Below, in pieces: positions 4,810-54,550 of a stretch of 64,000 nucleotides of DNA. Every line of letters begins with the position of its first letter. The first letter of the stretch is position 1. The stretch is taken from the NCBI GenBank assembly GCA_976551045.1, contig CDPCPM010000213.1, positions 5,580,001 to 5,644,000 of the forward strand, read 5' to 3'. The stretch is from Glaucostegus cemiculus (lineage: Eukaryota). Both the position numbers and the translations under genes were made by a program. The notes under the pieces were generated by a model. It saw only the letters and a list, made by a program, of their open reading frames with translations. It made no database searches and was not told where the DNA came from.

Positions 4810-5180
4810 AACTTGGATTGTTTTCTCTGGAGAATCGGAGGCTGAGGGGAGACCTGATAGAAGTTTCTAAAATTATGAGAGGCATAGATCGAGTAGACAG
4901 CCAGGATCTTTCTCCCAGGATAGAAATGTGGAATACTGGAGGACCTAGCTTTAAGGTGAGAGGGGGAAAGTTTAAAGGGGATGTGCAGGGCAAATTTTTA
5001 CAAAAAGTGGTAGGTGTTTGGAACGCACTTGGAGGGATGACAGTGGAAACAGATACCAAAGTGGCGTTCAAGAAGCTTTTAGATAGGCAAATGAATAAGC
5101 AGGAAATGGTCGAATTCGTTTAATTTGGCCTCATGCTCGGCATAGATATCATAGGCCGAAGGGACTGTTCCTGTGCCGTG
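4810..5180 (+). mobile_element. CR1 LINE 3' fragment
   Basis: ORF 4818-5123 FSLENRRLRGDLIEVSKIMRG...TGGPSFKVRGGKF...WNAL is a CR1 ORF2 C-terminus. It ends in the typical ggccgaagggactgttcctgtgc tail. Confidence 0.9.
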
Positions 5181-7976: not shown

Positions 7977-8310
7977 ATGAGTGGGACCTATGAGAAAAAG
8001 CTGCCCGGTCTTCTTACAGACATCCAGGGTTCGATGGGATGTCATCCTGCGAAAGATTCTCCAACTCTTCCAGAGTCTACGGCGACAGATGTTGGTTACT
8101 ATAACCCACAGTCCTGTCATCCTCCGCACGACTATTACCCAACTTCAGCCTATTCGCAACCAGTGAACCATTATCCGTACCATCAGTTTAATCTGAACAA
8201 TCTTCCAGGGCCTGGCTCCTATTCAGAGAAGCCCGACTATGCTTACAATAACTCGTACCGTCAGTATGGCCACTTCCACCGGGATCATCAAGTTTCGGCG
8301 GCTGAGAGAG
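7977..8310 (+). CDS. dlx3: Dlx3 homeobox gene, coding exon 1
   Basis: [45 protein letters not shown]... has the Dlx2/3/5 N-terminal SPTLPES motif. It ends at a strong donor GAG|GTAAGG (GT at 8311), phase 1. Confidence 0.95.
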
Positions 8311-9845
8311 GTAAGGGCTCGTGAAATTCCCAATCGGTATCTGAAGCTAGAAGCAGTTTTGGAAGACTGTCAAACAGACTGCTGTTTTCAAACTAATGCA
8401 TTCACCGGCCGAGTAATGGAGGGGCCCCGTCGGTCGAATGGCTGGCTGGTGACATGCGTCCGAACACACCCTAACTGAGTTGTTAACTAATATATATACA
8501 CTGACCCGAACCAGCCGAAACGCTGTACGATGAGTGCACTTACTAGAAGAGGGGCTAATCGGTTGAATATACACAGTACAATGGTGCAGTCTCTGGAGGT
8601 GAAGCATTCGATAGCCTGGCGCTATTAATGCACCAAAGCACCGTGGCTCCACAAATGTGCGGTACTTTGTAGAGGGATTCCGCTGTAATTTCTGACACGG
8701 TAGAAGTAACCAGGACGTTCTCGGGTACAGAATACTATGTGAAATAGGAAATGATGTGCGTGTTTCACAAGGGCACCGTCCAAGGCAGGGAAACCGAGTG
8801 TTCGATGTTCCGTGTGAAAGCAGAATCCCAGGCACAAATGTGAAAGCCGCGCCGTGTGTTTAGTTGGGACGGTGTTTTGAAAATGTGGGGTTTGCAGCAG
8901 TCAGAAGCTGCAGGGAAGTTTAGAAGTGGTCATCAGTGCGTGTACTGTAAGTTGCATAAGCACGCTGTTTAAAATAGTTACTCCAAATCCTTACCGACGT
9001 ACAAAGATCGGTTTTGTTGCTGAACTGGAATGGGACGGCCCCAGTTTCTAGTTATAGAGGCGCTTGAACCCGACCAGCGTGGCGGGTTCGGGAAGTGGAT
9101 CGGGTATTGGGTTAAGACCAAAACCAAATTTCAGCTCCCGGTCTGAACGAACTCCCTCTGGCCAAAACGCGGCACCAGCAAGCGAGGAAGCCGGCATCAA
9201 TGCTGCAAACATGCACTGGTGATGATGAATTCTCTAATTCCCAGCAATTGATGGGCCGTTCTAAAGGGAAAAATCGCAGATGAGAACCACAAAATAGTCT
9301 CACGAGTCCGAGTGCTCCCTGTCGTGGGGTTAGTGACCTCTCTGTAGTGCATTTTCACTCTGTCAGGATGCCTTGCTTAAGTACCCCATGGGCACACTAC
9401 ATGAGTAAATATGTAAAGTCATAAATAAATAAACATGATTATACTGGGTATGCATGCAACAGAACAGGAAACCTGAAAAGAGATTCTACTATTAGACAAT
9501 ACCTCTCTCGTACCTTGCAATAATAATTATCAATGATAATAATTATCAGTTCCCTCCCTCTTTCTGTAATTTCTGCAATGAAAATAAACATTGACCTTAG
9601 TAGCTGTATGAAAATGGCACGGAGTTTTGAGACAGTATGTTTTTGCAATTAGATTAGTCATCGTGACATCCTTGTACCCTGAAGGAATTCACCATCGGAT
9701 TTTAATTCTGTTTTCTGTTTGATTTATTTTGCATTTACACCGTGAAATGGAATCCCCTGGTTAAGGGAAAATATTTGCCGACTGCAGTGTTGTGAAACTT
9801 CGGCCATTCAGAGAATCTCTGTTTATGTGTTGTTTTGTGCTGAAG

Positions 9846-10036
9846 TTTCAGTGAAAGAAGAACCGGACCCCGAAGTGAGGATTGTGAACGGGAAACCCAA
9901 AAAGATCCGTAAACCGCGAACAATCTACTCTAGCTTCCAGCTGGCGGCTCTGCAGAAACGTTTCCAAAAGGCGCAGTATCTGGCTTTACCTGAGAGAGCG
10001 GAGCTTGCAGCTTCTCTGGGACTTACGCAAACACAG
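9846..10036 (+). CDS. dlx3: Dlx3 coding exon 2 (homeodomain N-terminal part)
   Basis: Translates as (V)[63 protein letters not shown]; FQKAQ is Dlx3-type. Acceptor AAG at 9843-9845, with an alternative in-frame CAG acceptor giving a start at 9852. Donor CAG|GTACAC at 10037, phase 0. Confidence 0.95.
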
Positions 10037-11258
10037 GTACACTCTAATCTCCACGGTGTAGGTGCGCCCACTGCTTTAGCATTGCACCCTGTACCCCCAG
10101 GCTAAGGCTTGCCTTGAGAAGATGAAGTTAGTATCAGTGTAGATTTAGGCTCCACACCCGTTTGGTTGTCGGAAAGGCCTTGTCTTTCTTTTCTAACCCG
10201 GTTCGCCGGCCGAGGTAATGGTTTCTCTTAAATGCCTTAAATGTCCTTCTCTGGACGTGTTTCCCAAACATTCCACATAACCTTGTAATGGCACATTACC
10301 TGCACTTTCCCATCTTTTTTTTTAAGTAAATTCACTTCGTAGTCTAAATAGAAAATATTTCCCCTTAAATATTTTACTCCTGGTCACTGCGTCGTTCTTT
10401 GTGTATTGGCAACCCTTATCCCTTATCATTAGACTATAAAACTTTACCAAACAAGCACCAATTAAATTTGGATAGTGAAACGTGGAGTGTGGGGCAAATT
10501 CATGGCCAGGGGAATGGAGAACAGTATTAATGTGTATTCATATTGATGGATTAATTACAAAAATTGGATTCAGCAAATATTTACACCCACTGGGTTTATG
10601 TCCACTTGTAATTGTCTATGAATAGATCAAACTCAGTGCAATGTCCCTTCCTCCATCTGAGCCAGAGTGCTTATACTACATTTGCAAGTGGCTAGATAGA
10701 AATAGGAATATATTAACATTTTTGAGGCTCAATTCTTTGGAGAAATATACCCTTCAGTTCTCACTTTATTGTTAAAATGCAGCCATTGCCTATGACCTCT
10801 TTGGCAGAGAAGTTGTTACTTAAAGACCAATAAACAGTCGTCTCTGTTGGGAAACATTAGAAATTACAGGTATCATTAGAACAAACTATTTCAACCCAAA
10901 TTATTTCAAAGGCCTCAGAAGGATTGTTTTCTATGTTGTTTTAAGATGAATTACTTAAAGGGCATCCATGAAGTATAAAGCGACCCAATTCAATATTATT
11001 TCTGGTAATTTACAAGTTTGCATCTGTTAAATAGAAAATACTAGGGAATGACCAACAAAATGAAATTAGATTTCCATCATAACAGAACTATGGTAAAATA
11101 GTTTCTACAATAATTGGTCTGTGTATATAATTCCAGGTGATGAATTTTATAATGGTATCTTTTGCTAATTATTTACATATTCTCTTTCATGTTCTCAGTA
11201 CTTGATTACAATATATTTCTTGCCAATTTTAATTATTTTTTCTTTCCTATCTGTCTAG

Positions 11259-11564
11259 GTGAAAATCTGGTTTCAGAACAGAAGATCCAAGTTTAAGAAG
11301 TTATATAAAAATGGGGAACTCACAATGGAGCACAGTCCCAACAATAGTGACTCAATGGCGTGCAATTCACCTCCCTCTCCAGCTATTTGGGAGAGTCACA
11401 GTTCGACTAGGAATCCCCTCCAGCATCAGACCCCACATAATTCTTCTCAAAACTACCTGGAAGACTTCAATCACTGGTACCCAACACACCCCTCCGGCTC
11501 TCACTTATCAGCAACAAATTCATTGCACCAGCCCCCGCCTCACAGTACTGGAGCAGTCTATTAA
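11259..11564 (+). CDS. dlx3: Dlx3 coding exon 3 (helix 3 and C-terminus)
   Basis: A polypyrimidine tract and TAG acceptor end at 11258. Translates as [20 protein letters not shown]...[17 protein letters not shown]...GAVY*. LYKNGE and the terminal GAVY match vertebrate Dlx3. The spliced CDS is 831 nt, in frame. Confidence 0.96.
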
Positions 11565-12423
11565 AACTTTTATTTTTACTTCAAAACTTTGAACTTTTTG
11601 TCTTTTACTGTTTTGGAAAACAACAACATCAACTGTACATGTATCTAGCGCCTTTTAACACTGGGGGTGAAAGCTCTTTAAAGAATGAATAAGTAAAATG
11701 CAACACCCACACTTCATGAAGACCCAGGGTAGAAATGAATTAGTCATCAGAACAACCAAGTAACTTCAAGAATCCCCATACCCCCTTCCTTTTCTATGTG
11801 TTGTACTACACATCAGTTGTAAATAATAACAAAAACTGTATATCAGGAAGAAAAATCAGAGCATTTTGTAACTCTGTCAGTTGTCAGGTTGTCACTGAAC
11901 ACTGAACTGATAATTGTCCCAATTTCAGTAACAAACAATATTCTGCATTCTTTGCCTATGTTTTATTATGTTATTTAAGTTTTTTTTGGTTTATTGGAGT
12001 GGTTAAATTATTACTGCCTGTATATTATTAGATTAGCAGCCAGTTTGTTTGATGTAGCAGATATAATGTATCCATTGAATTATGTCCAATGCAGTATGAT
12101 AAAAAATACATGGAACTTACTGTAAAATAGAAACTCAACTCGCAATAGACAATATGATGGAGCACAAATTTTCTGACAAGTAACAGGAACTGTATTTATG
12201 AAATTCTGTCTGAAATTATCATTTTTTTCTAAAAATTGTACATAAAATTTTACACATCAATTGTAGAATAATAATTAAGAAACATCCTTGCGGGTAATCT
12301 TCAAGAACATGTGTGACACTGGGAGGAATTCCTCAAAGAGATCAACATTTCATTATAATAATTTGGCTTGTAAAGGACACTCAATAGACACTAACCTCTG
12401 TTGTAACTTATGGTCTGTTTTGT

Positions 12424-12478
12424 AATAAAATCTTTTAAATGTTTGTTTGATGATATCCTTGAGAAAAATGTTAATAAA
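12424..12478 (+). terminator. Candidate Dlx3 polyadenylation signals
   Basis: AATAAA at 12424-12429 and 12473-12478, the latter followed by a T/GT-rich tract. This implies a 3' UTR of about 0.9 kb. Confidence 0.5.
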
Positions 12479-15400
12479 ACTCAACATTCCACTGGGACTT
12501 GTTTTACTTGCCTTATTTTGGAAAAAGAACTGATTGTGCCATGAAACATATTGACAAGAGCAGTTGTGACTTAGTGTGAACAGTTGTGAATAGTTTAAAC
12601 TGTGACTTGAACCCCAGTATTTACATCAATACCTCATTAAGTCATAAAAGTCGCAATAAATAATTAAATATTCATACTTAAACATGAAGTTGCAGTTTAT
12701 TGGGAGTGCCATTTTTGGCAGTGTTTATTTCCATCCTAGTTATAATAAAGAGCCTAGTAACCCAAAGTTACACCTGCATTTCCTTGAGGACAAAGGCATT
12801 CTCGCTATATAAAAAAAGATGCTCGGATAGTTCGCCGATTTACATTCTAGTCCACTTCCTGGATCGTGCTTAGGTACAAACACAGCGGGAGCCGAAAAAT
12901 ACAGCAAAAAAGTATAGCTAAATGAAAAATATAAGAACTCCGCAAAAAGCCAGCATGTGGATAGTAAATAGTTAAAAGTACACCCATCTCCTGCTATTAA
13001 AGGCAGTTTGGTTTGAGGGCTGCGTGCAAAAGCTCTATAGGCGACAGCGAGGCAGACATTCTGGAGACACTGAGTTGTGTGGAGCAGGATTTTATTAGGC
13101 ACGACTGCCAGAAAAAAAACTGCTCCATCGCCTGGGGTTAATATCGTGCTAGAACTCACATACCAGCAAGTGCATCAAAGCTGTTGCAATTGCCAGGCTG
13201 ACTGCAACAGGAGCTGCCTGATTTAACCCCATTCTTACCAAACTCAGTCTCCAAATATCATACCGATCCGCATTTACAAGGCAGGGGACCTGTACACCGT
13301 TTGACAGAAGTGGGGCTGGAGTGGAGGGGGAGGGAGTGACGGGAGAGCAGAGGAATGGATTGTAATTTGATCCAAATGAGAAAAGTTTTCGAGCTTTCCT
13401 GCCCCCGCCCTGTTAGATCTAATGCATCAGATGAATGTTTAGGATGGGAATCCATTTTCATTTTCCTCAGGTAATAAATGAAGTTTAGAGATCCAAAATA
13501 ATTAATTCAGAATCCATTCAGACTTTGAGATTTAGCAGCATTAACTGCGAACACATTTACACTTCGGACATGACAGCTTTTACATAATTGTGATACTTCA
13601 TCGTTCAGACTCACATAAAAATCTAGAAATATAATTCATAACCAGAACAATGAATATAGCCACTTTAATCAACAAGACGTTATATATATTAAAATGTAAA
13701 GACGTGCCCAATACAAGCTTTCACTGTTGTATTTACACACTCCCATCTGTGTATAAACAGATCCGCGGGTGGTCCATTTTATAAGCTTTCTGGATATGTT
13801 TGTACTGGTTTGCACATCTATGCATATAGGTGAGTTGGTAACAATTCCCTCCTCGGATTGTGAGTACGCGTGAAGCTTCTCCAGCGTTCAAGAACACAAG
13901 CGCGGCGCCCTAACAACTGATCGCAGTATAAATCCTCACGTTTTACATCAACGGGGAAGTTTGTGAGTCAGTTATGTTTCTCCACTTGTGTACATCGTGG
14001 TGCTAGCGATAAATAAGTCTGCGTAACAGACATGCTACATTAGGAAATACCGTAGGTGGTAATTAAAATGACATAACGGAATCCTAACAACAGTCTCTTC
14101 ATTGCAGTTGAAAGGAATTTGTATGTCTATAGCAAAGGATACGCCGCAGCCTAGAATCATGAGAACGGGATAAAAAGAACTAAAGCCCACAAGGAATGAG
14201 AGGCCGAGAACTTTTAGAAGTGCAGTGCTCTGCAGGATGCTTGTGAGGTGTCACATATATATATATATATATAAATTTAAAAAAAACTAAGATTGATTTC
14301 CATGTTAGCAGAGGATGTGGTCAGTCTCTGTAATGATAATTTTAATAACTCCAATAACTCAAATTAATCTAAAAGGAATAATTGAAAAAATAATGTGCAA
14401 CTCGATGAATAGTTTTGGGTACAATGGATAGTGACACCTGCACACAATCATTTGGAAAGAAGAGCTCCTGGATATATGTCTAAATAATTAAATTATATCC
14501 CAGATAACAAACAAGAGCGGTGATTTCATAGAAACCTTAAAATATAAATTAAAAGCGGCAGTTAAAACTGACTTACCATTTATCCGTCATTATTAAACAT
14601 GCAGACATGATGTTTGCATTGTTTCACTTACATTATCTGTTAGTATATCGTTCCACTATGCCAGCAACTACACTGTAGGCTTAGTAATGGGTGATTTACA
14701 AATAACTTTCCCATTTGTACATAGATGTTCCTCTAAGATATAGAATACATGCGTCGGAATGGTTAAAATTAAAGGCAAAAATGTTATGATCGTATTGTAT
14801 CAATGTCTAATGGACGGGTTCCACTAAAAAAATTGTGTGTGTGTGTATATTAAGTAATATTTATTGCAGTGTGGATTTAATATGCGGGAAACGGGCGAAC
14901 GACGCATTGTGGTTGGTTGGTGATACAATCATTCGATTTGTCCTAACCATGAATACAAGTATCATATTAGGAAGACTGCAGTGTTAACAAATGTCCAATG
15001 TTGTGTCAAATGCATTGTAGTCGCCACAGCAATAGTCGTACAATAGGCTTCCAATAATCATAAAAGGAGCCATACTTCTGCAAAAGGTACACGTGAAAAT
15101 GTTAAACATCTTGAGTTTTTGTTGTAAGAAATCAGTAGAACAAAGGCATCAGAAGCCTCCCATTATAATCCCTTATACTTCCTCCGAAATATAATCACCC
15201 AAAATTAACCTAAAAGACAGGCATAGCGGCAAAGATGTGCAGAGCTTGGCATTCATTCTCACTTAATGGTGTGTGAATTAGTCTGAAGAAAAGCGGCGGC
15301 GTTGAGCAGGTGTACAGTATATCTCTACCAAATCGCGAAAAGGCCGTTGTTTTATTAATTCAGTTCAATTTTTCGAAAAAAAAACTATCGTGATCGTTAT

Positions 15401-16180
15401 TGTCATAGCAGACTCGGCGACAAAATTTGCACCTATAATTGATGTTTGCGGTACAAGGAAGAGATTATATTTCTGAATTTAAGCTTCATCTAGTTTTGTC
15501 TGCACAGGTGAACACAACCTACACACTTTTATTAGGTATTTTCCGGTGGAATTACTTTACTTTCTTTTTTAAGTATTTGTACTTTCCATTTTGCAGTTGA
15601 AAGGAATTATAAGGAATAAACAATTCCAAACCCAATATTCGGAACAGTTATAACAGATATGTTGAACTTTAGAAATATTGAAAAAACACTGGTTCCAATT
15701 ATACACTGGAACGGGTATGTAAATATATAGTACTTGATAGTGCATTGAGGTTTAACATAATTATACACGGTGTTTAATGGCTGGAACCAATAGCAATGTG
15801 TACGAAATGAAAAAAAAGTTTAAAAAATCGAAGCCAGCTTTCCGAATGCTGGAATATATTACGTGACACAGGTAGAGGGAGCAGTGGACTGCAATCATTT
15901 AAGATGGTAGAGATAATGCTGTTTTTAACTGAGGACTCTTCGCAATACAAAGAACAGCTCGTAAAGACTTACGCTAAAACCATGTTTTTAAAACAGCCCG
16001 CCCATTAAGAGATTGAAAGTGAAAGTGTTGTGCAGGGTAGGGGGAAGTGGCGAAGGGCAAGAGGTGAAGATGGTGGTGGGAGGTGGGGGTTAGTTGGTGG
16101 TGAGGTAGGGGTTATAATTAGAAATTGGTTAAAGCTCCAGTTTCATTGTTCACGAGCCTTCGTGTCTTCAGATGGTGTGT

Positions 16181-16183
<3 letters not shown>

Positions 16184-16230
<47 letters not shown>
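16184..16230. repeat. (CA)n microsatellite
   Basis: Uninterrupted CA run of about 23 units. Confidence 0.95.
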
Positions 16231-16234
<4 letters not shown>

Positions 16235-16879
16235 AAATGAATCTTCGCACCACGGGATGTGAAAGGGAACGAGCAGTGTATCGAATTTCGGTGCATATGT
16301 TAAACACGAAATACATGGCACATCACAGCGCGATGAAATCATGACATGGCATTTAGAATGTAGGAATTATCCTCAATACAATCTTTCAAGTGCAACCCAT
16401 TGCAGACTGATAGACATGTGTTGCATTCAACTATATCCATAAAACAAGGATGGGTCTTCTCGTAGTCCCACATCGTGCCTTAAAGAAAACAAAACACTCA
16501 GCATCTGGTACATTATGGCAGGAAACTGTGCAAACCAGCCCGCCGCTGCCCGTGCGCGGTTAAAACGGATGCCCTTCCAGTAATTCTTGTCAGATGAAAT
16601 GCTGTACCATTCGAGCAGGGAGCTGCAACTTCACTTTCACTCGGTTCAAACCGAAAACGAGCCCGAAGCAGGGGATGCGGATTATAATTTTATTCACGAC
16701 ATTTAAAGACCCTGACCGTTAGACATCAAAGCGAACAGCAGAACTTCATTTACATTTTAGGAGCCCAATCTGACCTCAAAAACATTTTTTAACGATTACA
16801 ATGGAAAGTATTTCAAGTATGTCCATGGCAATTCCCTCACCTCACCTTAAAGGGCCACTTTCCCAACCTCTCTCCATGT

Positions 16880-17490
16880 ATACAGAGAAATAAAAGACAA
16901 AATAAAACGCAACTGATCTCGACTGCTCGCTCTGGACATGCGGCATCCTTTCCGGGATTTACTGGAGAATATGTCCCAGAGGCTCATAATCATAAAAAAA
17001 ATAATCCGAACTGTAATTATATCAGTACGATTTGTATTCATCAAACAGCCCCAAGTTCGTCAAAGAGAAGAGTAAATAATGAATTCAGTACTCTGGAGTT
17101 CCTAAACCTTTCCAGTAATTATGCTGTTTGGAAGACTATACGTAGGCTGTCCAGATTGGACTGCTATTATTATAATCTCAAGCTTTAAAATTACCTATAA
17201 TTTGCAAAGATGAGCAATTTCTCTATTCAACACATTTTATCCCATCTCTCGATGAGTAAACATGGCCAGTAATAAAGGCTAATTGAGCTGAGAATATAAA
17301 GAGGACGCTGATAGCAGAATTAATTCACACTTGGAGCTTTAACCAGAGCTAGCTGCACCGCCGCTGTTAGCTCCATTCCCTACACTTTTACTGAATGTAT
17401 TTCAGGGAGAGGGGGGGAAGCTGACAAATTGTCATTCTGTCCAGGCTTCAAAATAATTTCTGTGTAAATACCAGCCATAGCAGGTAAGCC
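16880..17490. promoter_or_regulatory. Intergenic conserved non-coding element candidate (I12a/I37-type position)
   Basis: Non-repetitive block dense in TAAT/ATTA motifs, including AAAATTACCTATAATTT at 17187-17203, located mid-intergenic. Confidence 0.5.
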
Positions 17491-18764
17491 AAACCCTTCG
17501 CTTATCCTTCTCGTATGCTCTGAAACAGATATTTTCTCGACTAGAGTTAAGAGATATAATTATCCTATGTATTCAGTGCATTGGTTAATGAGAGGGAGAA
17601 ACGCGGGGATGTCCAGCAATATTGCAAATCAACATGTTAAGTTTCAGTTTGTGAGTAGACTGTGTGTTCTGCTCACCCCTGTGGTAGTATGTGGTATGTT
17701 TTTCTTTGCCTCGAAGGCATTCTTAACGTTTGGCAACCTGATTCGGCTTGTGATCTTTGTTAATCCCACAACTTTTCTGCATCGATGGTCGATCCGTTAG
17801 GGCGCGCCTGGGATAGTTTTCTGAAAACTACGGACAGGAATACGGACTAATTGTTCAAATCCCATAACCGCAGTCCGCTGGGGTCAATGGAGGGGGGTGG
17901 GGGGGGGTCTAATGAGCTGCCTTGATTAGATCATTCAAAATGCATGTATTTTTAAAAAGAAAGGTCTACACCCAGTTATGATTTCCTGGTGTACTCTGTT
18001 CCCCTCATACCCCCAAAGGTATACCGAGTACATTGCATTATTTGTCCCCTCTTATCAGGCAGGTTTGTTGATACATTATTTGCTGATTATTCAAGTGCAT
18101 GAAAATTACTTACAGGCCTGATGCTGTAAATGCGGAGACTGAACTGAACTCAATAGGCAGGTCATCTGAAAATATGCTAACGTTTAAGAGGGGAACTCTT
18201 AAGGCTAAAGTATTTTGAGATCAAATGTGTCATAATAGAAGGTATTTCAGGTGGCATTTTAAACACAACGGTGTAAAGAGATCTATCTTTAAAATAAAAC
18301 TGGTTCGAAACTAGACAGGAATGGTTAAGGAACAAATTTCTCTTGGGATCACCGCTCGCTTTCTTTCTCAACAATCGTTTCAGATCTACTGGCACCATTC
18401 TTTCTTTCTGCCATTTACTGGGGGTGAGAGGGTGAGGGACAGATCGGAGAGGGTTGGAGGCGGAAGGCCACAGGGAAGAGGCGTCTTGTATTTTTTTTCT
18501 CCAAAAGAAAACGTTATGGAATGTGAGGAGTTAACATTTCATTGCAATATTCAGCCGTTTTCTATTCAGTTCTCGACACTAGGTTGTCTGTAGGTACAGT
18601 AGCTGCCTATTACCAGGAAACAGACAAATGTATATTCCGTTCAGTAATACATATAGAATGTTACTGCCACAGCATAAATACCTTTCTAATGCAGATTTCT
18701 TGGTTTGCTCTCTATATCGATCCAAAGCATGTTTCTTTTCCTTTTATCAGTATTTTGTTGATTA

Positions 18765-18980
18765 CAATATACACCTGCAAGTAATTTAGGTAATAACAAC
18801 TCAAATCTGTGCAACAAAACTGCAGCCGGAGCATCTGCCTGATTTCGCGTTTTTTTTCCACTCGGAATTGTTACATATTAAGCAGCGCATTTAGGCGACC
18901 GAAAATTGCCGGTAATTATCTTGATGGAAAGCGCTTTATTCAGGGAGCTACAGTCAAAATTGCTCTAATTACAGCCCCTT
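18765..18980 (+). promoter_or_regulatory. Intergenic enhancer candidate, I56i/I12b-like
   Basis: GAAAATTGCCGGTAATTATCTTGATGG...GCTACAGTCAAAATTGCTCTAATTA (18901-18971) has two paired AATT/TAATTA homeodomain modules. An upstream E-box lies in ATACACCTGCAAGTAATTT (18769-18787). Both resemble Dlx forebrain enhancers as I recall them. Confidence 0.7.
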
Positions 18981-21900
18981 TCACACAAGCATAAAAAAAT
19001 CTTAAAATAGCAGAGAAGTGGGCTTTGCACACGGTTTCCAGAGCAGATGTTACGGGGGGAGGCTTGACATGGGAGCTTTTATGCATTAAAATCTGTAAAT
19101 ACCACTATCTTGTCTTGTAGACTGACTTTGACAAAAAATTGGGAGAGCTAACGTGGATTTCAATACGTGTTGTAGTTTGCGAGGCATGACAGGTAGAGAT
19201 CAGAGACACGTGGTAAGTAATACGTTTCTTAATTGGGAATGTTAGACACAGGTGTATCTGTCAGACCTTTGAACAAGGAATATAGATTTATCCGCTTTCA
19301 GGTTTTTTAAAAACACGTCGACCATATTGTTCCATGCCTAAAGGCTTAAAGGCCGTTAGTTCCGACTGACAATCAGTATATATTATTACTTAATCAATCA
19401 CTTTTGGCACAGCGGATTTATGTTTACTTGGCTAACCACAGGCTTACTGTAGTGGATTCTTAGTATTCATTAATATTCAGTAAAAAAAGCATGTAAAAAT
19501 GATGACATATGTTTAGTGGCATGTGGTGGTGGTGGGGCGGGGGGAGTGTTTAAAACGTGCTGTTTCTCATTGATAGTTTATATAGAACACAACGTGTACA
19601 CCCTTAATATTGACCTTCAAATAGCAGAATTCATACAGAATGCTGAACAAAATAACTTTCACCATCTGGGCGTGCATAAGGAAAGATTGAATTTGGACTA
19701 AAAGGCAAAAGGAATATTGATTTCAAAAATGGAATTAATTATACACTTTGGGTCGTCATGATGTGGAACTGTTCGCTGGTGACAAAATCGATTGGCAAAG
19801 TGGGTAGGGTAAAGTACATCAGCCGGAAGTTTAAACAGACAATACACGCACTGAACATTGGAAAGACAGGTTATTACCTGCAATTATTCTATGTGTGACA
19901 AGTACTAACTTCCATTTTTTTTCTCAATTACATTTTAGGGTCTTAAGATGGCATGCGTCACTTTAACGCTTGTTCTTAAATAGAAAATATACCACAATAA
20001 ACATGCCCCAGCGCCCACCCCACCTCACACACGCCGCCAAAAAAAAAATGTTTCTTTGAATTTTTATTTAGTAAGCTGCATCGGCTTCAAGTAATGTCGT
20101 CAGTTTTTGCTTCATCAAAAAAATAGAAATGCAACAATCAAGAGAAATTTGCCATCCAACAATTGTTCTAACTGAACTAACGCTCCCGCAACATCAGTGT
20201 AAAACCAGGTCAAGGGGGCTTGGCCCTCGGTTACCACACTCCAAACAACAGCTGAATTTTAAAAGTCCAAGGCCTTTTTAATCAGAAAGACAAATAACAA
20301 CATTTCCAGAAATGCACCAATTCTTCTCGGCAAATTAATATGTGGTCATGCAAAAATAAAATCACGTTTCCTCCACTTTTTAACGTGACCGCAGACATTT
20401 TATATAATTTTAAAAATCTAGTAAGCTTCACGTCTATGTTTGACCTCGGGGAAACGTAAGTAAGAAATGGTGTAGGGATGTAGAATGAATGGAATAGTTT
20501 GATCAATTACATGCAATCATCCTGCCTTTCCTTTACACATAATTACAGTTAAGTCCACAGTAAGTCGGCATTGCTTTTTTTTCTTTAAAAAAATGCGAAC
20601 ACGCTCCTGCTTCTATTATCCTGAGAAACGTACTATTAAATCGAGTAGCCACGTTTATCCGAACCGGGTGTATATAGGATGCTTTGAACGCGTATCACTG
20701 ATTTACTTAGAATAATGACATAATACATATGCACTATTTACAACTAATTTAACAATATATACACACACGTACTGTGTTCTACCGTTCTGTTCTCCAAGAC
20801 ATCGTTTGCCTTCATATTGCTTGGATGAGCTAAACATATCCCTTTTATTTCCCTACATAGGCTGTATTTCAAATGGGAGCCACCTCCAGCTGGTTGTTTC
20901 ATTTCCGATAACACATCACATTTCATCATTAATTATATAGTTTATTGTAGGGGGGTATGGGGTGGGGTGGTTCTGGAGGGAAGAAGCAGGAATAGTGGTT
21001 GAGTGGGCATACCTTCTTTACAGTCATTGGATTGGTTTGACCCAAAGTAGGCCTTCTGCCTTCAGTTATTTTAAACAGTTGCGGTCTTGATTAGCGATCA
21101 TTTAAACTTAAACATAACAGATTACAATGGATGAAACTACTGTGCGGAGTAATGGTACGACCTACTCGTGCTAGTTGAGCTGTTAATAGACTAACATCGG
21201 GAAGGGTATTTTAAAGTTTCCTTCCATCTCTGAGAAAGTTCTAAAACATAGGCCAAATATGAAAGTGCAGACAATTGTTTTTTTTTTAATGCTGAAAACA
21301 GTGGAAATGCGCTATATTTCCCTGGCATCTGTAAACAGACAGCTAAATGTTTGACTTAATGACTTCATTTTTCCTCAGAATTTTAAGGAATTTTTTTGGA
21401 TCGAGGATCAAAGCCCAAAACTTTGGTCTGTCTTTTCCTCTTTGTAGATGCTGGGAAAATAGCTTCGTATTTCCAACAATTATTTCCAACTGTACACATC
21501 TTGGCAACTGTATGTGTTTGAATGTATCATATTCATTTCACCCTGACATAAAACTGTTGCATAAAAAGGACCCCTGAAAATTCCAGTATGATACTTTGCA
21601 ACTAAACAGGTGTTTGCTGTTTTATCTCAAACCACATAATGCTTCAAAGTGGAGTTATGATCATTAAATAAAACATAGTTGAAATGGCCTTTCTCCTCAG
21701 CAGAGATTGGGGCCTGTCTGTGAACACTCTGAAATACAGCCTTTGCATTTTAACCAGCTAAGAAGGATCTGCATCTTGAAGTAAAAGTGTGTTTTTTAAA
21801 CAACATTAAAATTGAGCTTAATAGAAGAGCTATAAAATCAGTCCATTTTTTTTTTTGCAATTCACAACGTAGATTATAGATGTATCAAACTTCTCCAATA

Positions 21901-22124
21901 GAATTCCAAACATCTTACAAGGATTGCATTGCACTCATTAGAGGAGCTTGACTCTATATACTCATTGCATTTCTAGAACAAACCTGTTTGGACATGACTG
22001 AAAGCACATAGCCTTTGCTATCCCAAATCAGTCATCTTTTCTGGTCCATAAGACTACCTCAAATCATGTAACATCTTTGTTTAAATGATAGAAAGTCTGT
22101 GGGATAGATTGTACTCCTGGTCAA

Positions 22125-22376
22125 TCACATCATCTGGGGTCTTGGCATGGTGTCCTGGTGGGGTGGTGGGTACCATGACCCAAAACTGTTAATGTAGCTG
22201 TTTGGTGGCATAGTGGCACCTTTGTTTGCCATGGCAACGTCCCAGACTGGTGGGATATTAGGTGAACATGGAGACAAAGCAGCAGAGGTGGGCAGATGGT
22301 CACCTTCTTGCACACTGGAGCCGTGTTTCATCAGCTTCTTGTACTTGGAGCGCTTGTTCTGAAACCAGATTTTCAC
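22125..22376 (-). CDS. dlx4: Dlx4 coding exon 3
   Basis: Acceptor ttttgtttcag. Translates as [20 protein letters not shown]...[17 protein letters not shown] (Y rather than F) and convergent linkage to Dlx3 identify it as Dlx4 rather than Dlx6. The spliced CDS is 747 nt, in frame. Confidence 0.93.
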
Positions 22377-25352
22377 CTGAAACAAAATAAGAGTATAGGC
22401 ATCATATTTTCTTCACTGTTTAAGTTCAAGTCGATACTCAGATCACTTGATCCAAATTGGTATACAGAATACACTGAGGGATTATTCATGGGTCTAAATT
22501 CATAAGTGATCCAATGAAAAAGGCCAATATTTCAACATATTTGAAATTACTTTGTAAAAGAATACGACATCCGCATTTCTAATGTGGATGAAGGACTGGT
22601 GTGGAATATAGAGAGGATTTCAACATATTGTAACCCTTTTCCAACAGTCTTGTCAAACCAATGATGCTTGAATATTCAAGCGGATCTACAAAGCGGCCCA
22701 TCAGCAAATAATTGCAGCAATCACATTTTGAACCTTCGAGAGGAAAATGAAACACGTTGCATATAAAGGAATTAAAGACTTTAAGTGTTGATATGAACAT
22801 ACAAGGAGAGGACACATAACACTGACGGCTTTAATTCGGGTCCATGTTCGCTAACCTACATGAGAAGCAGACTCCTTAGGAAAACAACAAGGAGTTTGAT
22901 ATAAATTGTCATATGCTCGTCAGTAGAAGCAAAAAAAACTATTTATTTTTCCAATAGCCTACAGACTTAGTGATCTTAACCAAACCGTAATTCCCTATTA
23001 AAATAAAAGTGTGGATAGTTTCGTATAGGTGATATTTCGTATAAAAGGTGACATTATTTTTAGAAAGCTCTGTTTTGCCCCCGAATTGATAAGGTCTAGC
23101 CTGAAATTAAGGTTACCTTTGTAGCCAAAGAGACCAGTAATAAATGGGAGATATAGTAAAAATAGCCAGTTATTTTGCAATCAGAATTGAAAATATTTCC
23201 CTTCCTCATCTGTAATAAAGACCTTTACAATGTGTGTTTTGAGGCGAGTTTAAACTCACCTCCTATGTTTTAGATTGAAATATAATGCTAAAATGGATTG
23301 TGTCATTCACTCCCGGATCCCATATACATATGAAAAATATGGAACGCTCAGGTAGATTGTATAACTTATCTCCGAATTATCTCCGAAAGAAACAAGAAGA
23401 AACCCAGTGAAATGCACTAGATATTGAAATAGCATCACACATTCAGAAATTTTCACTCAGTATATGCCAGCAGTACAGTTTTAGATTGTTTTTTGCCGGT
23501 GTGTTGAAGGGCCTCGGTCGTGGAGAACTCACTTATTCCCTGTGAGAACTCTATGTTTGTAAATGATCTGTGAGATTAGACGTGAGCTTTCAAACCCGTT
23601 TCTCTCTGAAGCATGTTCCTCATTTGTCCTTTATGTATGTCTGCATAAAGTTTATTTTATATTTAAGCGTATTAATCAACCTCAACATTTCTTTCTGATG
23701 GAGAAGCAGTGAATACTTCTGGTTCGCACACAATGCCAATGTCAACGTGCGTTCGGTTGCACAACATTCCCAATATATTTGAGCATATCGGTTGAAACGC
23801 GAACGGTTGTTGGGATTTGATAGATTACAGTGTCTTTTATTAGTATTTGTATAGTGTAACTATTGTTTTCAATAAAGTTTTCTGTTGACGTTCTAAAGAC
23901 TCCGAAATTAGTTAGAAAATGTAATATTTAAGACAAATATGTCCTTATTTATATAATGGTTCAACAACTTTAATTGGGATTAATAGGCACATTTTAATTA
24001 AACAGAAAGGTGTTACGGTACTAAATTATGATCAATTCTAAATGTATCTTTTTAAATTAATTTTCGAATCGGGACACTTTTTCCTCGGAAAGAGCATCAA
24101 ACTTCCTTTGTAGAGGTTTCCATTTTTAGAAACAGGCGCTTTGGATCTTTTCTTGAGTAACACGTATTCAGGGTGATTATTAACATTCACACGAACTTGA
24201 AATCCTAGTATGGTCAACTTACTTTTATTGTGCGGATTTCGGGGAACCCTTTTCAAAAGAAAATGCCAAAAAGAGTAGATCATAAAAAGGAAGAAAACCT
24301 CGTGTAGTTTGAGCTGCGCAAGTGGGCAGCAAGTTATACTTCTTACTGTTCTCTCAGAATACTGAATTAATACGACCATAAAATAATTCAATAACATGAA
24401 AATAGACAAATGCATAAAATTTTGGCCATTGCTCAGATATTGCTGGTACTTGAATTACATTTTTTGAGAGCTTGCAGAACTTGCAAACGGGTAAAACGTG
24501 CTTGACGATAATGGATTGCCTGACTCTGCAGCGTTGAAAAGTGCTTTCTACTGTGTGATCCAGCTACCTGTGACCTCCAGGCGGGTTTGCTTCATGGACT
24601 GCACTACGAGAAGTTCTGAAATATTGGAGGGTTTATTTTTCATTACCAGCGGCCACTTTGAATTTAGTATATTTGGCGATTTAAAATTGCGGACATTGAA
24701 AGGAAATGGCTAAGTTAATGTGTCCCTACTTGGGAAATGAAAAGGCATTGTTCTCATCGTCAAGTGAGTGTTTCATGCAACATGGTTGTACTACTATTTT
24801 GTTTTAAACAATTAATTTATAAGATTAAAACATAAGGAATTACCGATTTATTTGGCCCCTTAATTCCTGTATTTTAACGGATTAGTAGTGGCAGATCAAA
24901 TAAAAAGATGCCATAAGGAAACGGCAAGAAGTGGCGCCACGCGAAATCATATAATTGGCCTCTGCCATTTTGTTGGACAGTGGTAGGATGCTTTGGTAAA
25001 CACATTCAACTTGCATCTGTAAAGACACACTGAGATTTAAATAACCCGAGAAGGGAGATTCTGTTTGCATTGGTGTGATCACACACGAATACCAAGGGTC
25101 CCACGCCTGTTGCTGGAAGTTCTAAGTCATTGTTTATGGTGATAGTTTTACAAATCCAATGCCTTTTAGTAAAGTGCCCAGTTCAACGACACCAAGGTGT
25201 TGAAGTTTAAAAATGAGAACTGACCTGGGTACATATGGATACGTTTTCAATCGCGCGTGTGCGCTTTCTTACAAGAACAAAGAGATTGCGTTTTTTTTAC
25301 GTGGACCCCCATACTTTCAAGAGGGCAGAATTTGTTCTGGCCGGCACCCTAC

Positions 25353-25546
25353 CTGTGTCTGGGTGAGTCCGAGAGAGGCTGCCAATTCTGCTCTCTCTGG
25401 TAAAGCCAAATACTGCGTCTGCTGGAAGCGGTGGTTCAGAGCTTGCAGCTGTAAGCTCGAATAAATGGTCCGCGGTTTTCGGATCTTTTTCCCTTTCCCG
25501 TTCAATCGGATTTCTCCATTTTCGATTACAGTCGACTTCTCGTGTT
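25353..25546 (-). CDS. dlx4: Dlx4 coding exon 2 (homeodomain N-terminal part)
   Basis: Translates as (E)[64 protein letters not shown]. Acceptor ttccttccaag; donor CAG|GTAGGG, phase 0. Confidence 0.94.
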
Positions 25547-26223
25547 CTTGGAAGGAAATTGGAAACACTAAACCTTAGGTCCATCACGGCTTTGACTGAC
25601 GACCACCCCTCCTTTACTTCCCCCGTCCCAACAGGTTGAATCAAACTACCTTGAAATGGTGATTCCCCATAAATAAAAGCCAGCGCAACTATGCGAAATT
25701 TTATAGGGAGAAAAGTAACGTTTAAATCAGTTAAATACTGGACGCGTTGCAGGAGCTCGATTATAGACCACACTCCGATATGGCTTACTACACAAATATA
25801 CACAAAAGGGTCACATTTCAAAATTCTTCACGCCACTAACAGTTTGCTCGAGAGCAATGCAACAATCCACCGCAATCGGTCAGGTAATTTAATTTGCCAG
25901 TTTCCCCCCAACAAAGTGGACCTCTCGGCAAACAATAGATTATTTCGCCGTAGCGCCAGTCAATTGGCAGGAGACGGAATTGTGCACGAACAAACTGCTG
26001 ATTTTTTTTCAGCATTAAATTTGCCTAATTGCGCGTGTCTATTTAAGGAACGCAATTAAAGTCCTTTTTTTATGAATATACAAATAATGTCATCATAGAG
26101 GCCTCTCAAATCCCGGCATCGCGACTCTAAAAAGGGAGCTGACTCAGTAGTAGAATGGCGATGGAAGTCACAGTGTAAACCGATGTATATTACAACGGGG
26201 ACTGGTGTCCGAACGGCTCTTAC

Positions 26224-26524
26224 CTGTGTCCTCTAACCTGGTGTGACCCAAAGTGCTGCTGTTCTGGTATGGCATATACGGGTTAGGTGCATGATTGCTA
26301 ACTGGGCTTGGGTACGGGTAACCCAGCGATCTGCCATAGGAAGAGGCGCCTGAGTAGGAACCATCGTGCTGAGAATGTCCGCTCGAGTGCAAGCCGTGCA
26401 CCGGATAGTGTCCATGGGACATGCCAGGGGATGACTGCTGAGCTGGATGTCCAAACTCCAGAAAGGCCGACTTGGATGAGTCTGGTGCTAACAGACCGTC
26501 AGCCATCGCGGTCATAGTCATCAT
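26224..26524 (-). CDS. dlx4: Dlx4 homeobox gene, coding exon 1
   Basis: Translates as MMTMTAMADGLLAPDSSKSAFLEFGH...TRLEDT, with the Dlx1/4/6 SKSAF motif. Donor CAG|GTAAGA (plus-strand cttac at 26219-26223), phase 1. Confidence 0.93.
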
Positions 26525-38539: not shown

Positions 38540-39060
38540 AGTCATAGAGACAGACTGCACAGAAACAGGCTCTTGGGCCCACCTTGTACGTACCAACTAT
38601 CAAGTATCCCTGATGCAGGGTCTCAAGGTCTCAACCTGAAATCTCAGATATCCCTCTGTCGCCTTGGAGACACGGGATCGCAGATGCTGCTTGACTTGCT
38701 GAGTTCTTTCAGAAGTTTGATTTTTGTTTCAGATTTCAGCATCTGCAGTTTCTTGCATCTCCAAATATCCCATCTATACCAATCCCATTTCCCAACACTT
38801 GGTCTGTAGACTTCTTTGCCTTAGCAATTCAAATGCTCATCTGGATACTTCTTAAAGGTCATGAGAGTTTTGTTGTCACCACCCCTGAGGCAGTGCATTC
38901 CAAATTCCAAAACCATCTGCTGTGTGAAAAAAATTCTTCCTTATATCTCCTCTGAACCTTTTACTCCTTACCCTAAACTTACATCGTCTGGTTATAGAAA
39001 CTTCTGCTATGGAGGAAAGTTTACTCCTGCCAATATATGTATACCACTCAATTCTGTGCC
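38540..39060 (-). mobile_element. CR1 3' fragment interrupted by a Penelope-type arm (38608-38762)
   Basis: ORF 38876-39082 TRRCKFRVRSKRFRGDIRKNFF...IWNALP; CR1 tail at 38540-38605. Confidence 0.85.
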
Positions 39061-41849
39061 TCTCTACTTGGTACCCATCCAAGGACTTGTTACAAATACA
39101 ATATGAACAATTATGAACTTCATTATCTTAAACATTCATCCAATAGAAAGCTGTTGCTATGCATACCTTGCCTTCAAATTTCATCCATTGATTCTCGGAA
39201 GTTCAACTCATGCTACTCCATTATTTCATATGAGGTAAGCAGAGGACTGGAAAGTGACAGCTACTGTCCTGTGCAGTTGTGATGTGGAGAAGCTATTGGA
39301 GGGGAAACAACTCGCACTTCTTACTTATCTTAGAAACCTACATTTGTTTCATTTATTTAATACCAATATAGTTTGAAAATACTGACCAGTGAGCTACATG
39401 ATTCCAGGCCAGCCAAAATCTTGCATTTCTTGAGTGCACCATTTCTCTACTGACAGAATGATAGTTTGTTGTTTTACCTAAATGTAATTACATTTTTAAT
39501 GTATTTACACACTGGCCATTTTCACACTTCATTGACAGAAACATTATATTACAGCATTGATAATATGGGTAAATGGCGCAGTTGATAATTTTCATAATTT
39601 TCATTTATATCATAATACAATCCTGAAATTGCCAAGAACATTAAACATGATAAAAAGACAATTATTAAAGGGATGAACACCCAGTAAAACAGTAACAAAT
39701 GACAGGAAATCTGTAAAAATATGCGACATAGATTTGTGGAGCATTTAATGGCAGGGAGTGTTTTGTTTGTCACTTGAGTTCACTGAATGCAAAGGGTGGA
39801 TGAATTTCAGGTGGAAGAAATATTTTCAATTCTCTAATATTATTTATTAGAAATAAAGGCTACAGAAAACATGTACATCCTTTGAAAATTCCTTAGAGGA
39901 CCAAACAGTCAATTCAACATTGGACACAGATTGGTTCCATGAGGAGTTGCCTGCTCTCTGGATTTCCATGGTGCTAACTGTTTTCTGAGCATTTTTACTT
40001 TATATAACCAAGGGACTGTTTTGTCTGCATTCCCAGAACAGATCAACCCATCTAATGAACTGTGTTCACATGACATGAATGGAACTGAGCTTTCTAATCC
40101 GTCACTGACCTCAGGAGGACCATCATGGCACAGATCAGGTAATCTAACACGGTTAAGTAGGGAATTAAACTCTCTCAAAGCCAAATGCTTTCCTGGGTCC
40201 TTATATACACCAGATAAAATTTGCAATCATACTGGCTGTTGTAAAGCAACACTAGAAACCTCTCTGTGCTACTAATTCCTGGTAGTGAGCATACTAGTAC
40301 ACACCAAATGAAAGATATATGCAAAAACAAGCTGGGAAAAACAAAAACATCGATTCAAATAGGAAATAATTGAAAATCTGTCTGATCAAATTAATGGGAC
40401 TAAGAGGAAAATTAAACATAAATTCAACAAGGGCTAATATCAGAAATAACATCTTAAGTTTATTTCTTGGAAATCATATATTTCCATATCACATAGTTGT
40501 AGTATTGTGCACAGAGTTGTAGTATTGTGAACTGTGCAAGATTACAGTGCACTTTTGAAATGGCTACATGTTTTAATCTCATGGTTTCTGTCAACTACCA
40601 GCCAGCTGCAGACTTTCCAATTTCGGTACATGTGGTTACTTCACTGCCTTGGCAATTGAGACAGGTTTTGATGAATTGATTCTGCTTTGACTCAAGATTA
40701 GTGTCTGGATATTTATGTATGATCAAAATAAAGATTGTTTCACATATGTGGCTCTGAGAACGCAATCTGTCCCTTCCACAGAAAAACACTGTGGAGCACT
40801 GATGTTGAGGAATGAAATTCCTCCCGTTTCTGGCTCTGGATACCAGCATCAGATGCAATAAATGTAGATTTTTCTTTTGCTCTAACTGAGAAAAGCAACA
40901 CAGGGATATGTAGCTGCATTGTACCATATCAATAAGGCTATTATTTAGATTGCATGTGGGGAGTGAACCTTTCCATGTGTAGAAACTTCTGGAGGTAGTG
41001 CAGTGCAATAGGCAAGTACCATGGCCCAGCCTTGAGGAGCTGTTGTAAAGCAGGGCTCAGTTTTTTAAGTGAGAACAAGGAGAAGGGTTTTCTGAATGTA
41101 TTGTATTACATTTTGGGATGAGAAAGATCTGAGTTAGCCTTAGTGTGGCAAATGCCTAATAGTGATGCAGGCTCTGGAGCAGATCAGAAAAAATACTTGA
41201 AATCAAAATGCAAGAAGATCCATTTCAAGAATATTTCATTCCATTGTTTTCCAAAAGGTGTGGCAACTTAGTTAAACATTTTAAATTGTGATTTCCTTAA
41301 AATGCTTGAAGATAATAGCAGATAATGGAGAAAAGTCATCAGAAAATTGACACTGTGCCAAACTGTGCCTAACACCTTGCCAACAATGCGAGGATTTAGA
41401 AAAACAAGTCTCATCTATGTAAGGAAATGATTTCTTAAGTTTGGTTACTAGGTTGGTGGGGACTGGGGAATAAAACATGTAGCTCAGTTGGGTGACAAAA
41501 TCAGTCGAGGGATGGCTTAGTAGCCTTGATGATGTCCTTTTAATATGGGTTCATTGGGAGAAATCTTTCTCCATATTTCTGGTATATTTATGAAAAAAAA
41601 ACTTACTTTGATTCTGAAGTAAAAAAAACCAAACTGCTGGAGGAACTTAGCAGATCAGGTACCACCTGTGGAGGGAAGTACAGTTGGTATTTTGAGTCAA
41701 GACCCTTCATCTGGGCTTTACTTTGGTTCTGGCCTAACAAACCTTTAAAGTTGTTATGGGAGTGCAGCAGTGACGATCGAGAAGCCTGTACAGTTGATTC
41801 AGAGACTCAGGTTTGAATCTCATTGTGCAGGTTGGAGGCATTAAGGTAC

Positions 41850-54234: not shown

Positions 54235-54550
54235 GTATAAGAACATAAGAAGTAAGAGCAAGGGGAAGGCCATTTGGTGATTCATGCCTGCTCCACCATT
54301 CATCAAGACTTTGGCTGATCTATATCCTCAACATGATTTTCTGCATTATCTACATGTCTATTGATTCCCTGAATAACCAGAAATCTATCGATCTCTGTTT
54401 TGAATTATCCCAATGACTGTGCCTCCACCATCCTCGCACGGATAAATTTCTCCTCATTTCAGTCCTAAATGGCTTCCTTCTTATTCTAAGAACATGACCC
54501 CTTGCTCGAGGGAAGGGAAACATCCTTGCTGTATACAGCCTGTCAAATGT
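54235..54550 (-). mobile_element. CR1 3' fragment
   Basis: ORF 54350-54649 includes RMFP..RARGHVLRIRRKPFRTEMRRN; ataagaacataagaa tail at 54237-54251. Confidence 0.82.

What the first reader, a model, noticed from the sequence alone, without database searches (positions are those of the whole stretch)
18765..18980. Apparent paralogue of the I56i and I12b forebrain enhancers retained in a Dlx3-Dlx4 cluster
Seen: 18901-18971 reads GAAAATTGCCGGTAATTATCTTGATGGAAAGCGCTTTATTCAGGGAGCTACAGTCAAAATTGCTCTAATTA, and 18769-18787 reads ATACACCTGCAAGTAATTT. Recalled, not aligned: the Dlx5/6 I56i core is approximately GAAAATTACAGGTAATTATCTTTGACGG...CGCTGTAATCAGCGGGCTACATGAAAAATTACTCTAATTA. That is colinear with the first block, including the spacer between the two Dlx-binding modules. 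The Dlx1/2 I12b enhancer contains approximately ATACACCTGCAAGCAATTT (an E-box; I12b is Ascl1-responsive) and GGCGA..AAAATTGC. Established: I56i and I12b drive subpallial GABAergic expression, whereas mammalian Dlx3/4 lack forebrain expression. Inference: this element is a mosaic of both, which points to one pre-duplication ancestral enhancer whose third copy survives in cartilaginous fish.
Basis: partly seen in the sequence, partly recalled or inferred. Interest (0 to 1): 0.88.

Follow-up and report, generated by a model that had tools for sequence, protein, structure and literature searches.

The report
Ray Dlx3/4 copy of I56i enhancer
Between the Dlx3 and Dlx4 genes of a ray lies a short stretch about 80% identical to the core of the well-known mammalian interneuron enhancer I56i, probably a third copy left by the early vertebrate genome duplications in a gene pair thought to have lost it.

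Summary
The window holds an intact, convergent Dlx3-Dlx4 pair of a cartilaginous fish, probably a ray. Bases 18901-18971 match the printed mouse and human I56i core at 59 of 74 columns. I aligned them by eye. Both paired homeodomain-site modules, their 5- and 4-base inner spacing and the spacer are kept (E about 3e-11; spacer alone beats 200,000 of 200,000 shuffles). That is homology, not scattered TAAT motifs.

The I12b link rests on less: a 13-base exact match, E-box included, to a mouse I12b primer. I could not obtain full I12b. 'Mosaic' is better read as a slowly evolving third paralogue. Function is untested. Catshark Dlx3/4 were not seen in forebrain up to stage 25 but were in arches and placodes, so arch or placode feedback is at least as likely as forebrain activity. 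Ten literature searches found no description, and papers state that I12b and I56i are dissimilar and that shark Dlx3/4 has no conserved intergenic element. Key older papers were not readable, and conservation in other species was not testable.

The parts
18901..18918 (+). Module 1: AAAATT-N5-TAATTA paired homeodomain (Dlx-type) sites
   Evidence: 16 of 18 identical to the I56i core, by eye; one of only 2 such modules in the window
18919..18955 (+). Spacer, 37 nt (40 in I56i), colinear with I56i; an inner TAAT of I56i is altered here
   Evidence: 28 of 40 columns identical (by eye); 0 of 200,000 shuffles reach the score
18956..18971 (+). Module 2: AAAATT-N4-TAATTA paired homeodomain sites
   Evidence: 15 of 16 identical to I56i (by eye); single match in the window, 5 of 100 shuffles give one
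18769..18787 (+). E-box block (CACCTG at 18772-18777) followed by TAATT; I12b-like
   Evidence: 18769-18781 identical to 13 bases of a mouse I12b primer; chance estimates
18781..18827 (+). Weak upstream likeness to I56i: a 14-column block (18781-18794) and an exact octamer (18820-18827) in the same order, 39 versus 43 nt apart
   Evidence: By eye against (11 of 14 to human, 10 of 14 to mouse); 38 of 3,000 random sequences give such a chain; suggestive only, chosen after the fact
18832..18837 (+). Second E-box (CATCTG)
   Evidence: no functional evidence
7977..11564 (+). Dlx3, three exons 7977-8310, 9846-10036, 11259-11564; 276 aa, open frame, GT-AG introns
   Evidence: 257 of 276 residues identical to Mustelus Dlx3; catshark Dlx3 primer matches 11323-11349
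22125..26524 (-). Dlx4, three exons 26524-26224, 25546-25353, 22376-22125; 248 aa, open frame, GT-AG introns
   Evidence: groups with Dlx4 (99/98) apart from Dlx6; catshark Dlx4 primer matches 22273-22298
11565..22124 (.). Intergenic region, 10,560 bp; the core lies about 3.2 kb from the Dlx4 stop and 7.3 kb from the Dlx3 stop
   Evidence: about 10 kb in catshark

Best explanation
The element is the Dlx3/4-cluster paralogue (ohnologue) of I56i, and probably of I12b. All would descend from one intergenic enhancer of the ancestral Dlx bigene that was copied by the early vertebrate genome duplications. It most likely still works as a Dlx-feedback enhancer shared by Dlx3 and Dlx4: Dlx proteins bind the two paired TAAT modules, a bHLH factor binds the upstream E-box, and together they sustain Dlx3/4 where Dlx proteins are already present. 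Its most likely native output is in tissues where shark Dlx3/4 are known to be on, pharyngeal-arch mesenchyme and the olfactory placode, with forebrain activity latent or minor. Shown: sequence, cluster identity, significant colinearity with I56i, 13-base match to I12b. Inferred: common descent by genome duplication, binding, enhancer activity, tissue.
For: Alignment and nulls. The cluster is Dlx3/4. None of the 12 mismatches falls in the four hexamer cores (p 0.004; p 0.047 when only the two inner cores are counted), which suggests selection. The element is single-copy in the window. I56i holds DLX-binding sites and mediates auto- and cross-regulation (PMC8520905) and is active in both forebrain and arches of mouse (PMC3695995). 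Catshark Dlx3/4 are positive in arches and olfactory placode (Table 2). The element lies near the Dlx1/4/6-class gene. The CNE numbering in PMC3024246 fits I12b near Dlx1 and I56i near Dlx6 if numbers run from the first-named gene (direction recalled). Dlx4 and Dlx6 are sisters in my tree (96/100, rooted only by Dlx3), which fits the closer likeness to I56i.
Against: There are no functional or cross-species data. Strong likeness covers 74 columns, whereas the catshark I56i orthologue aligns to mouse over 338 bp at 76%. Slow substitution in cartilaginous fish (recalled) could preserve a decaying relic. Full I12b was not seen. The orientation statements in PMC6509701 are ambiguous: read one way they put I12b and I56i in the same orientation as this element, read the other way I12b is inverted. 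Zebrafish and catshark I56i drove only brain expression in zebrafish, which favours forebrain over arch. The exon-2 homeodomain piece scores DLX5 (78 bits) above DLX3 (71 bits), and no Dlx5, Dlx2 or elasmobranch Dlx6 was in the tree.
Confidence: 0.5

Rival explanations
1. Same ancestry, but the native role is the ancestral one: a subpallial/diencephalic enhancer reading Ascl1 and Dlx1/2, so ray Dlx3/4 are expressed in GABAergic progenitors at stages not yet examined.
For: It combines the I56i Dlx modules with an I12b-type E-box block. Catshark I56i and I12b both drive telencephalic GFP in zebrafish. The catshark negative covers only stages to 25, when subpallial Dlx1/2/5 had just begun and Dlx6 was also negative. 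[quoted passage not shown]
Against: Catshark Dlx3/4 are negative in ventral telencephalon and diencephalon at stage 25. Cichlid dlx3b/4a/4b were not seen in diencephalon. Which I12b E-box binds Ascl1 was not verified. CACCTG is also a Snail/ZEB site (recalled).
Confidence: 0.28
2. A true paralogue that no longer works: a relic decaying slowly in a slowly evolving genome.
For: The likeness is short. Flanking I56i sequence aligns only weakly (chain p about 0.013). An inner TAAT of I56i is altered. No counterpart was found in mouse or zebrafish Dlx3/4 by VISTA at 70% over 100 bp.
Against: All four hexamer cores are intact and the mismatches lie outside them. Only 3 gap bases have accumulated since a duplication older than jawed vertebrates.
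Confidence: 0.14
3. A literal mosaic or a misplaced piece: gene conversion or transfer from the Dlx5/6 and Dlx1/2 clusters, a mis-assembly, or a mislabelled Dlx5/6 cluster.
For: The 3' part looks like I56i and the 5' part like I12b. The automatic name of the closest protein is 'DLX-6-like'. The exon-2 piece scores DLX5 first.
Against: 44 of 50 hits of gene A exon 1 are named Dlx3, 6 carry no paralogue name, and none is Dlx5. Gene B groups with Dlx4 at 99/98. Both catshark Dlx3/Dlx4 long-PCR primers match the third exons. The 5' part also keeps weak I56i-like order, as expected of a paralogue. A recent copy would align far beyond 74 columns.
Confidence: 0.05
4. Convergence: independent gain of Dlx-binding modules in a Dlx-regulated locus.
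For: Paired AATT/TAATT sites are enriched across the window (11 matches versus 3.3 expected), and TAAT motifs are low in information.
Against: The spacer, which holds no such module, is significant alone (0 of 200,000), and the 5-then-4 inner spacing and the module distance are kept.
Confidence: 0.03

Closest known systems
I56i (mDlx/hDlx; Dlx5/Dlx6 intergenic enhancer)
   Same: Two paired homeodomain modules with 5- and 4-base inner spacing, colinear spacer, 59 of 74 columns (by eye); intergenic place in a convergent Dlx pair.
   Different: Lies in Dlx3/4. Strong likeness is limited to about 74 columns of a 338-bp shark-mouse CNE. The E-box found here is missing at the matching place in I56i (by eye). 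Activity untested.
I12b (Dlx1/Dlx2 intergenic enhancer, MASH1/Ascl1-responsive by title)
   Same: 13 identical bases with the CACCTG E-box. From recall only, not verified: I12b also has two Dlx-site modules downstream of that E-box.
   Different: Full sequence not obtained, so extent and orientation are unverified; described in print as not similar to I56i overall.
I37-2 (mammalian Dlx3/4 intergenic arch enhancer)
   Same: Same cluster and interval; arch activity would fit the best explanation (described).
   Different: Reported as conserved between mouse and human only; sequence not obtained; relation to this element unknown.
Duplicated or paralogous conserved non-coding elements from the vertebrate genome duplications (PMC3595034; McEwen 2006, recalled)
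   Same: A short conserved block shared by paralogous developmental loci.
   Different: No Dlx pair is named in the text or in 4 of 5 supplementary files of PMC3595034 (the lists may use coordinates). That survey would not see a copy retained only in non-mammals.

Membership tests
Dlx3-Dlx4 bigene cluster | Convergent pair of three-exon Distal-less genes | tested here: met
   both frames open, GT-AG introns, 10,560 bp apart
Dlx3-Dlx4 bigene cluster | Genes are Dlx3 and Dlx4, not Dlx5 and Dlx6 | tested here: met
   against: (exon-2 piece nearer DLX5); no Dlx5 in the tree
I56i paralogue | Significant colinear sequence likeness beyond TAAT motifs | tested here: met
   by-eye alignment; nulls
I56i paralogue | Equivalent position and orientation in the cluster | tested here: inconclusive
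   near the Dlx1/4/6-class gene (direction recalled); orientation text ambiguous
I12b paralogue | Colinear likeness over the enhancer | tested here: inconclusive
   13-base primer match only; full sequence not found
Conserved non-coding element | Conserved across species at the orthologous site | not testable with these tools
   no vertebrate DNA collection; plasmid search empty; Rfam no match
Dlx forebrain enhancer (I56i/I12b type) | Binds Dlx proteins at the TAAT sites | not testable with these tools
   sites intact in sequence only
Dlx forebrain enhancer (I56i/I12b type) | Drives subpallial reporter expression; flanking genes expressed there | not testable with these tools
   catshark Dlx3/4 negative to stage 25

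The most novel reading that the evidence does not exclude
The ray element is a working third copy that bridges I56i and I12b. It would show that the two classic GABAergic-interneuron enhancers, described as dissimilar, are ohnologues of one Ascl1-plus-Dlx feedback enhancer older than the vertebrate genome duplications. It would also show that Dlx3/4 kept forebrain competence in cartilaginous fish (and perhaps birds), losing it separately in mammals and teleosts.
Probability: 0.27. Interest if true: 0.85.

Novelty: new member of a known kind. Interest (0 to 1): 0.62.

Why it matters
The literature I could read says that I12b and I56i have near-identical activity without overall sequence likeness (PMC8520905; PMC8232755), that shark Dlx3/4 has no conserved intergenic element, and that Dlx3/4 lost forebrain expression once and early (PMC3695995). 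A third copy that aligns to the I56i core and carries an I12b-type E-box block makes a standing question directly testable: did the forebrain interneuron enhancers arise once before the genome duplications, or separately after? It gives a bridge sequence for searching lamprey and hagfish, where gnathostome CNE queries failed. It also marks which bases of the widely used Dlx AAV enhancer core have been kept since before jawed vertebrates diverged.

Tried and rejected
Rfam: no family at gathering score in the whole window, and only sub-threshold chance hits in the intergenic region and the element, so no RNA-family alignment to the Dlx5/6 antisense RNA.

Plasmid records: no match. The element is not a repeat: single copy, no tandem array, no notable direct or inverted repeat.

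Full I12b sequence: not in any main text by motif search (2 papers listed, 1 relevant, primers only) nor in the supplements of PMC7768279, PMC12807873 file 3 or PMC8577842. I56i was not in the supplements of PMC8521139 (none held), PMC7885384 or PMC8163032. One search returned only unrelated papers. Ghanem 2003 and Sumiyama and Tanave 2020 are not held.

The I56i alignment is by eye, not computed; only its match, mismatch and gap counts entered the null tests. A further T-rich block (18843-18859) resembles I56i by eye at nearly the same offset from the core (58 versus 59 nt), but it was not tested and is low in complexity, so it is not counted. The species list of the protein clusters was not obtained. 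The Dlx5/6 reading of the cluster was rejected.

Full report
OBSERVATION. They lie in non-coding, single-copy DNA with no Rfam family.

THE LOCUS. The window holds two convergent Distal-less genes. Gene A (+ strand, exons 7977-8310, 9846-10036, 11259-11564; 276 aa) is Dlx3. Of 50 hits of its first exon, 44 are named Dlx3, 6 have no paralogue name and none is Dlx5, and it shares 257 of 276 residues with Mustelus Dlx3. Gene B (- strand, exons 26524-26224, 25546-25353, 22376-22125; 248 aa) is identical at 246 of 248 residues to a Hypanus protein auto-named 'DLX-6-like'. In a tree of 23 named proteins that I chose from the 250 retrieved, plus the two window proteins, it falls with Dlx4 (99/98), apart from Dlx6 (98/99). 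The two primers used to amplify the catshark Dlx3-Dlx4 intergenic region each match once, with 3 mismatches, in the third exons (0 of 100 shuffles). Against this: the exon-2 piece scores DLX5 above human DLX3, and the tree holds no Dlx5, Dlx2 or elasmobranch Dlx6. The source is a cartilaginous fish, most likely a ray (inference). The core of the element is about 3.2 kb from the Dlx4 stop.

LIKENESS TO I56i. Supplementary file 3 of PMC12807873 prints mouse mDLX and hDLXI56i. Aligned by eye, window 18901-18971 matches their shared core at 59 of 74 columns, with 12 mismatches and gaps of 1 and 2 bases. The layout is AAAATT-N5-TAATTA, a spacer of 37 versus 40 bases, then AAAATT-N4-TAATTA. The raw score of 66 gives E 3e-11 against the window. 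0 of 150 Markov 530-mers reach it. 1 of 83 real window fragments does, the one with an AC microsatellite, and the next best is 37. The spacer alone (28 of 40) exceeds all 200,000 composition-matched shuffles, which rules out mere motif convergence. The window has only 2 such modules, both here. No mismatch falls in the four hexamer cores (p 0.004, or 0.047 for the two inner cores, which are free of end bias). Upstream, two short blocks recur in I56i in the same order (38 of 3,000 by chance; chosen after the fact, suggestive only).

LIKENESS TO I12b. A motif search of the library found one relevant paper, in which a mouse I12b ChIP primer contains window 18769-18781 exactly, E-box included (bioRxiv 10.1101/463398). 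The chance within 200 nt of the core is about 4e-5, and 0.002 for the whole intergenic region. The full I12b sequence was not found. My recall is that it also has two Dlx-site modules downstream of this E-box, but that is unverified. Position fits: I12b near Dlx1, I56i near Dlx6, this element near Dlx4 (numbering; direction recalled). Orientation cannot be settled from PMC6509701.

HOW IT MOST LIKELY WORKS. Shown: sequence, cluster, colinearity. Inferred: the ancestral Dlx bigene had an intergenic feedback enhancer with an E-box and two paired homeodomain modules, and genome duplication left copies in all three clusters. I56i kept the modules and spacer and lacks the E-box at that place, I12b kept the E-box block, and the ray Dlx3/4 copy kept both. 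That is differential loss, not a mosaic. By analogy with I56i, which holds DLX sites and mediates cross-regulation, Dlx proteins would bind the modules and sustain Dlx3 and Dlx4 together. The tissue is open. Catshark Dlx3/4 are on in arches, placodes and fins but were not seen in forebrain at stage 25, and mouse I56i works in arches as well as forebrain, so I put arch or placode output first (0.5). Native forebrain use is a serious rival (0.28): the catshark negative stops when subpallial Dlx expression begins and Dlx6 was negative too, shark I56i and I12b drive only brain expression in zebrafish, and chick Dlx3 is reported in ventral forebrain (title only). A decaying relic (0.14), conversion or mis-assembly (0.05) and convergence (0.03) follow.

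PRIOR KNOWLEDGE. Debiais-Thibaud 2013 sequenced most of this interval in catshark but aligned it only to the orthologous mouse and zebrafish intervals at 70% over 100 bp and reported no conserved region. No cross-cluster comparison appears in the sections I read. The Ekker lab wrote in 2021 that I12b and I56i show no overall similarity. Ten searches found no description of this element: Dlx3+Dlx4+I56i+enhancer (9 listed); paralogous/conserved noncoding/Dlx/I12b; two motif searches; I56i+AAV+core; I37-2+Dlx3; hI56i/DLX2.0/mDlx; Dlx3+Dlx4+subpallium+shark+GABAergic; the chick Dlx3 title; dlx3+dlx4+CNE+shark+paralog (of which 2 were seen as listings only). The library lacks most subscription papers. 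Ghanem 2003 and Sumiyama and Tanave 2020 were not held. From recall, the first reports limited similarity among the four CNEs and the second discusses motifs shared among clusters, so a partial prior description is a real risk (about one in four, my estimate).

WHAT I SAW OF EACH PAPER. PMC3695995: abstract, passages, sections 8, 12, 13, 15, 21, 29; Figure S1 is an image and was not seen. PMC3595034: one passage, and a search of 4 of 5 supplementary files. bioRxiv 463398: passages; supplements closed. PMC8520905: abstract, passages, section 6. PMC8521139, PMC2891724, PMC3024246, PMC6509701, PMC8232755: passages. PMC8163032: passages and supplement search. PMC12807873: supplement rows only (file 1 unreadable). 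PMC7885384, PMC7768279, PMC8577842: supplement searches only. PMC2779492: one reference entry. Zerucha 2000, Poitras 2007, Sumiyama 2003/2012, McEwen 2006 and Zhu and Bendall 2006: titles, second-hand statements or recall only. Unseen supplements could hold I12b or a prior alignment.

VERDICT. A real and statistically strong paralogue of the I56i core in a Dlx3/4 cluster, with a probable but unproven link to I12b. It is a new member of a known kind (duplicated conserved non-coding element) that contradicts what I could read about Dlx3/4 and makes the origin of the interneuron enhancers testable. Interest 0.62.

Noticed in passing
window 22125-26524 (-): Chondrichthyan Dlx4 is auto-annotated as DLX-6 or DLX-6-like in Hypanus and Callorhinchus. 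The tree places these proteins with Dlx4 on very short branches, so Dlx4 has evolved slowly in this lineage.
   Followed up: yes
window about 5700-38500: No interspersed repeat pair was found in this span by self-comparison apart from the two homeobox exons. Intergenic CpG observed/expected is 0.63 against 0.33 outside the cluster, and 0.99 in the element: a repeat-poor, probably unmethylated developmental locus.
   Followed up: partly
window 4813-5115 and 48273-48569; also 38876-39127 and 54350-54664: Fragments whose translations look like the 3' end of CR1-type LINEs (recalled likeness). The first two match each other at 72%; no Pfam family above cut-off.
   Followed up: partly
window 18843-18859: A T-rich block resembling I56i by eye at nearly the same offset from the core (58 versus 59 nt); low complexity, not tested.
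   Followed up: no
window 19870-19896 (-) versus 18771-18797: An inverted partial copy (70% over 27 nt) of the E-box/TAATT block about 1.1 kb downstream; the E-box is not intact there; may be chance.
   Followed up: no
window 17260-17450 and 13340-13510: Intergenic stretches with clustered TAAT motifs that could be counterparts of other Dlx CNEs (I56ii, I12a, I37-2); seen by eye only.
   Followed up: no
window 14102-14119 and 15591-15608: An exact 18-base direct repeat 1,489 bp apart in the intergenic region; unexplained.
   Followed up: no
window 17895-17908 and 16071-16114: G-rich runs in the middle of the intergenic region; the catshark study reported poly-G blocking sequencing at a central position.
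   Followed up: no
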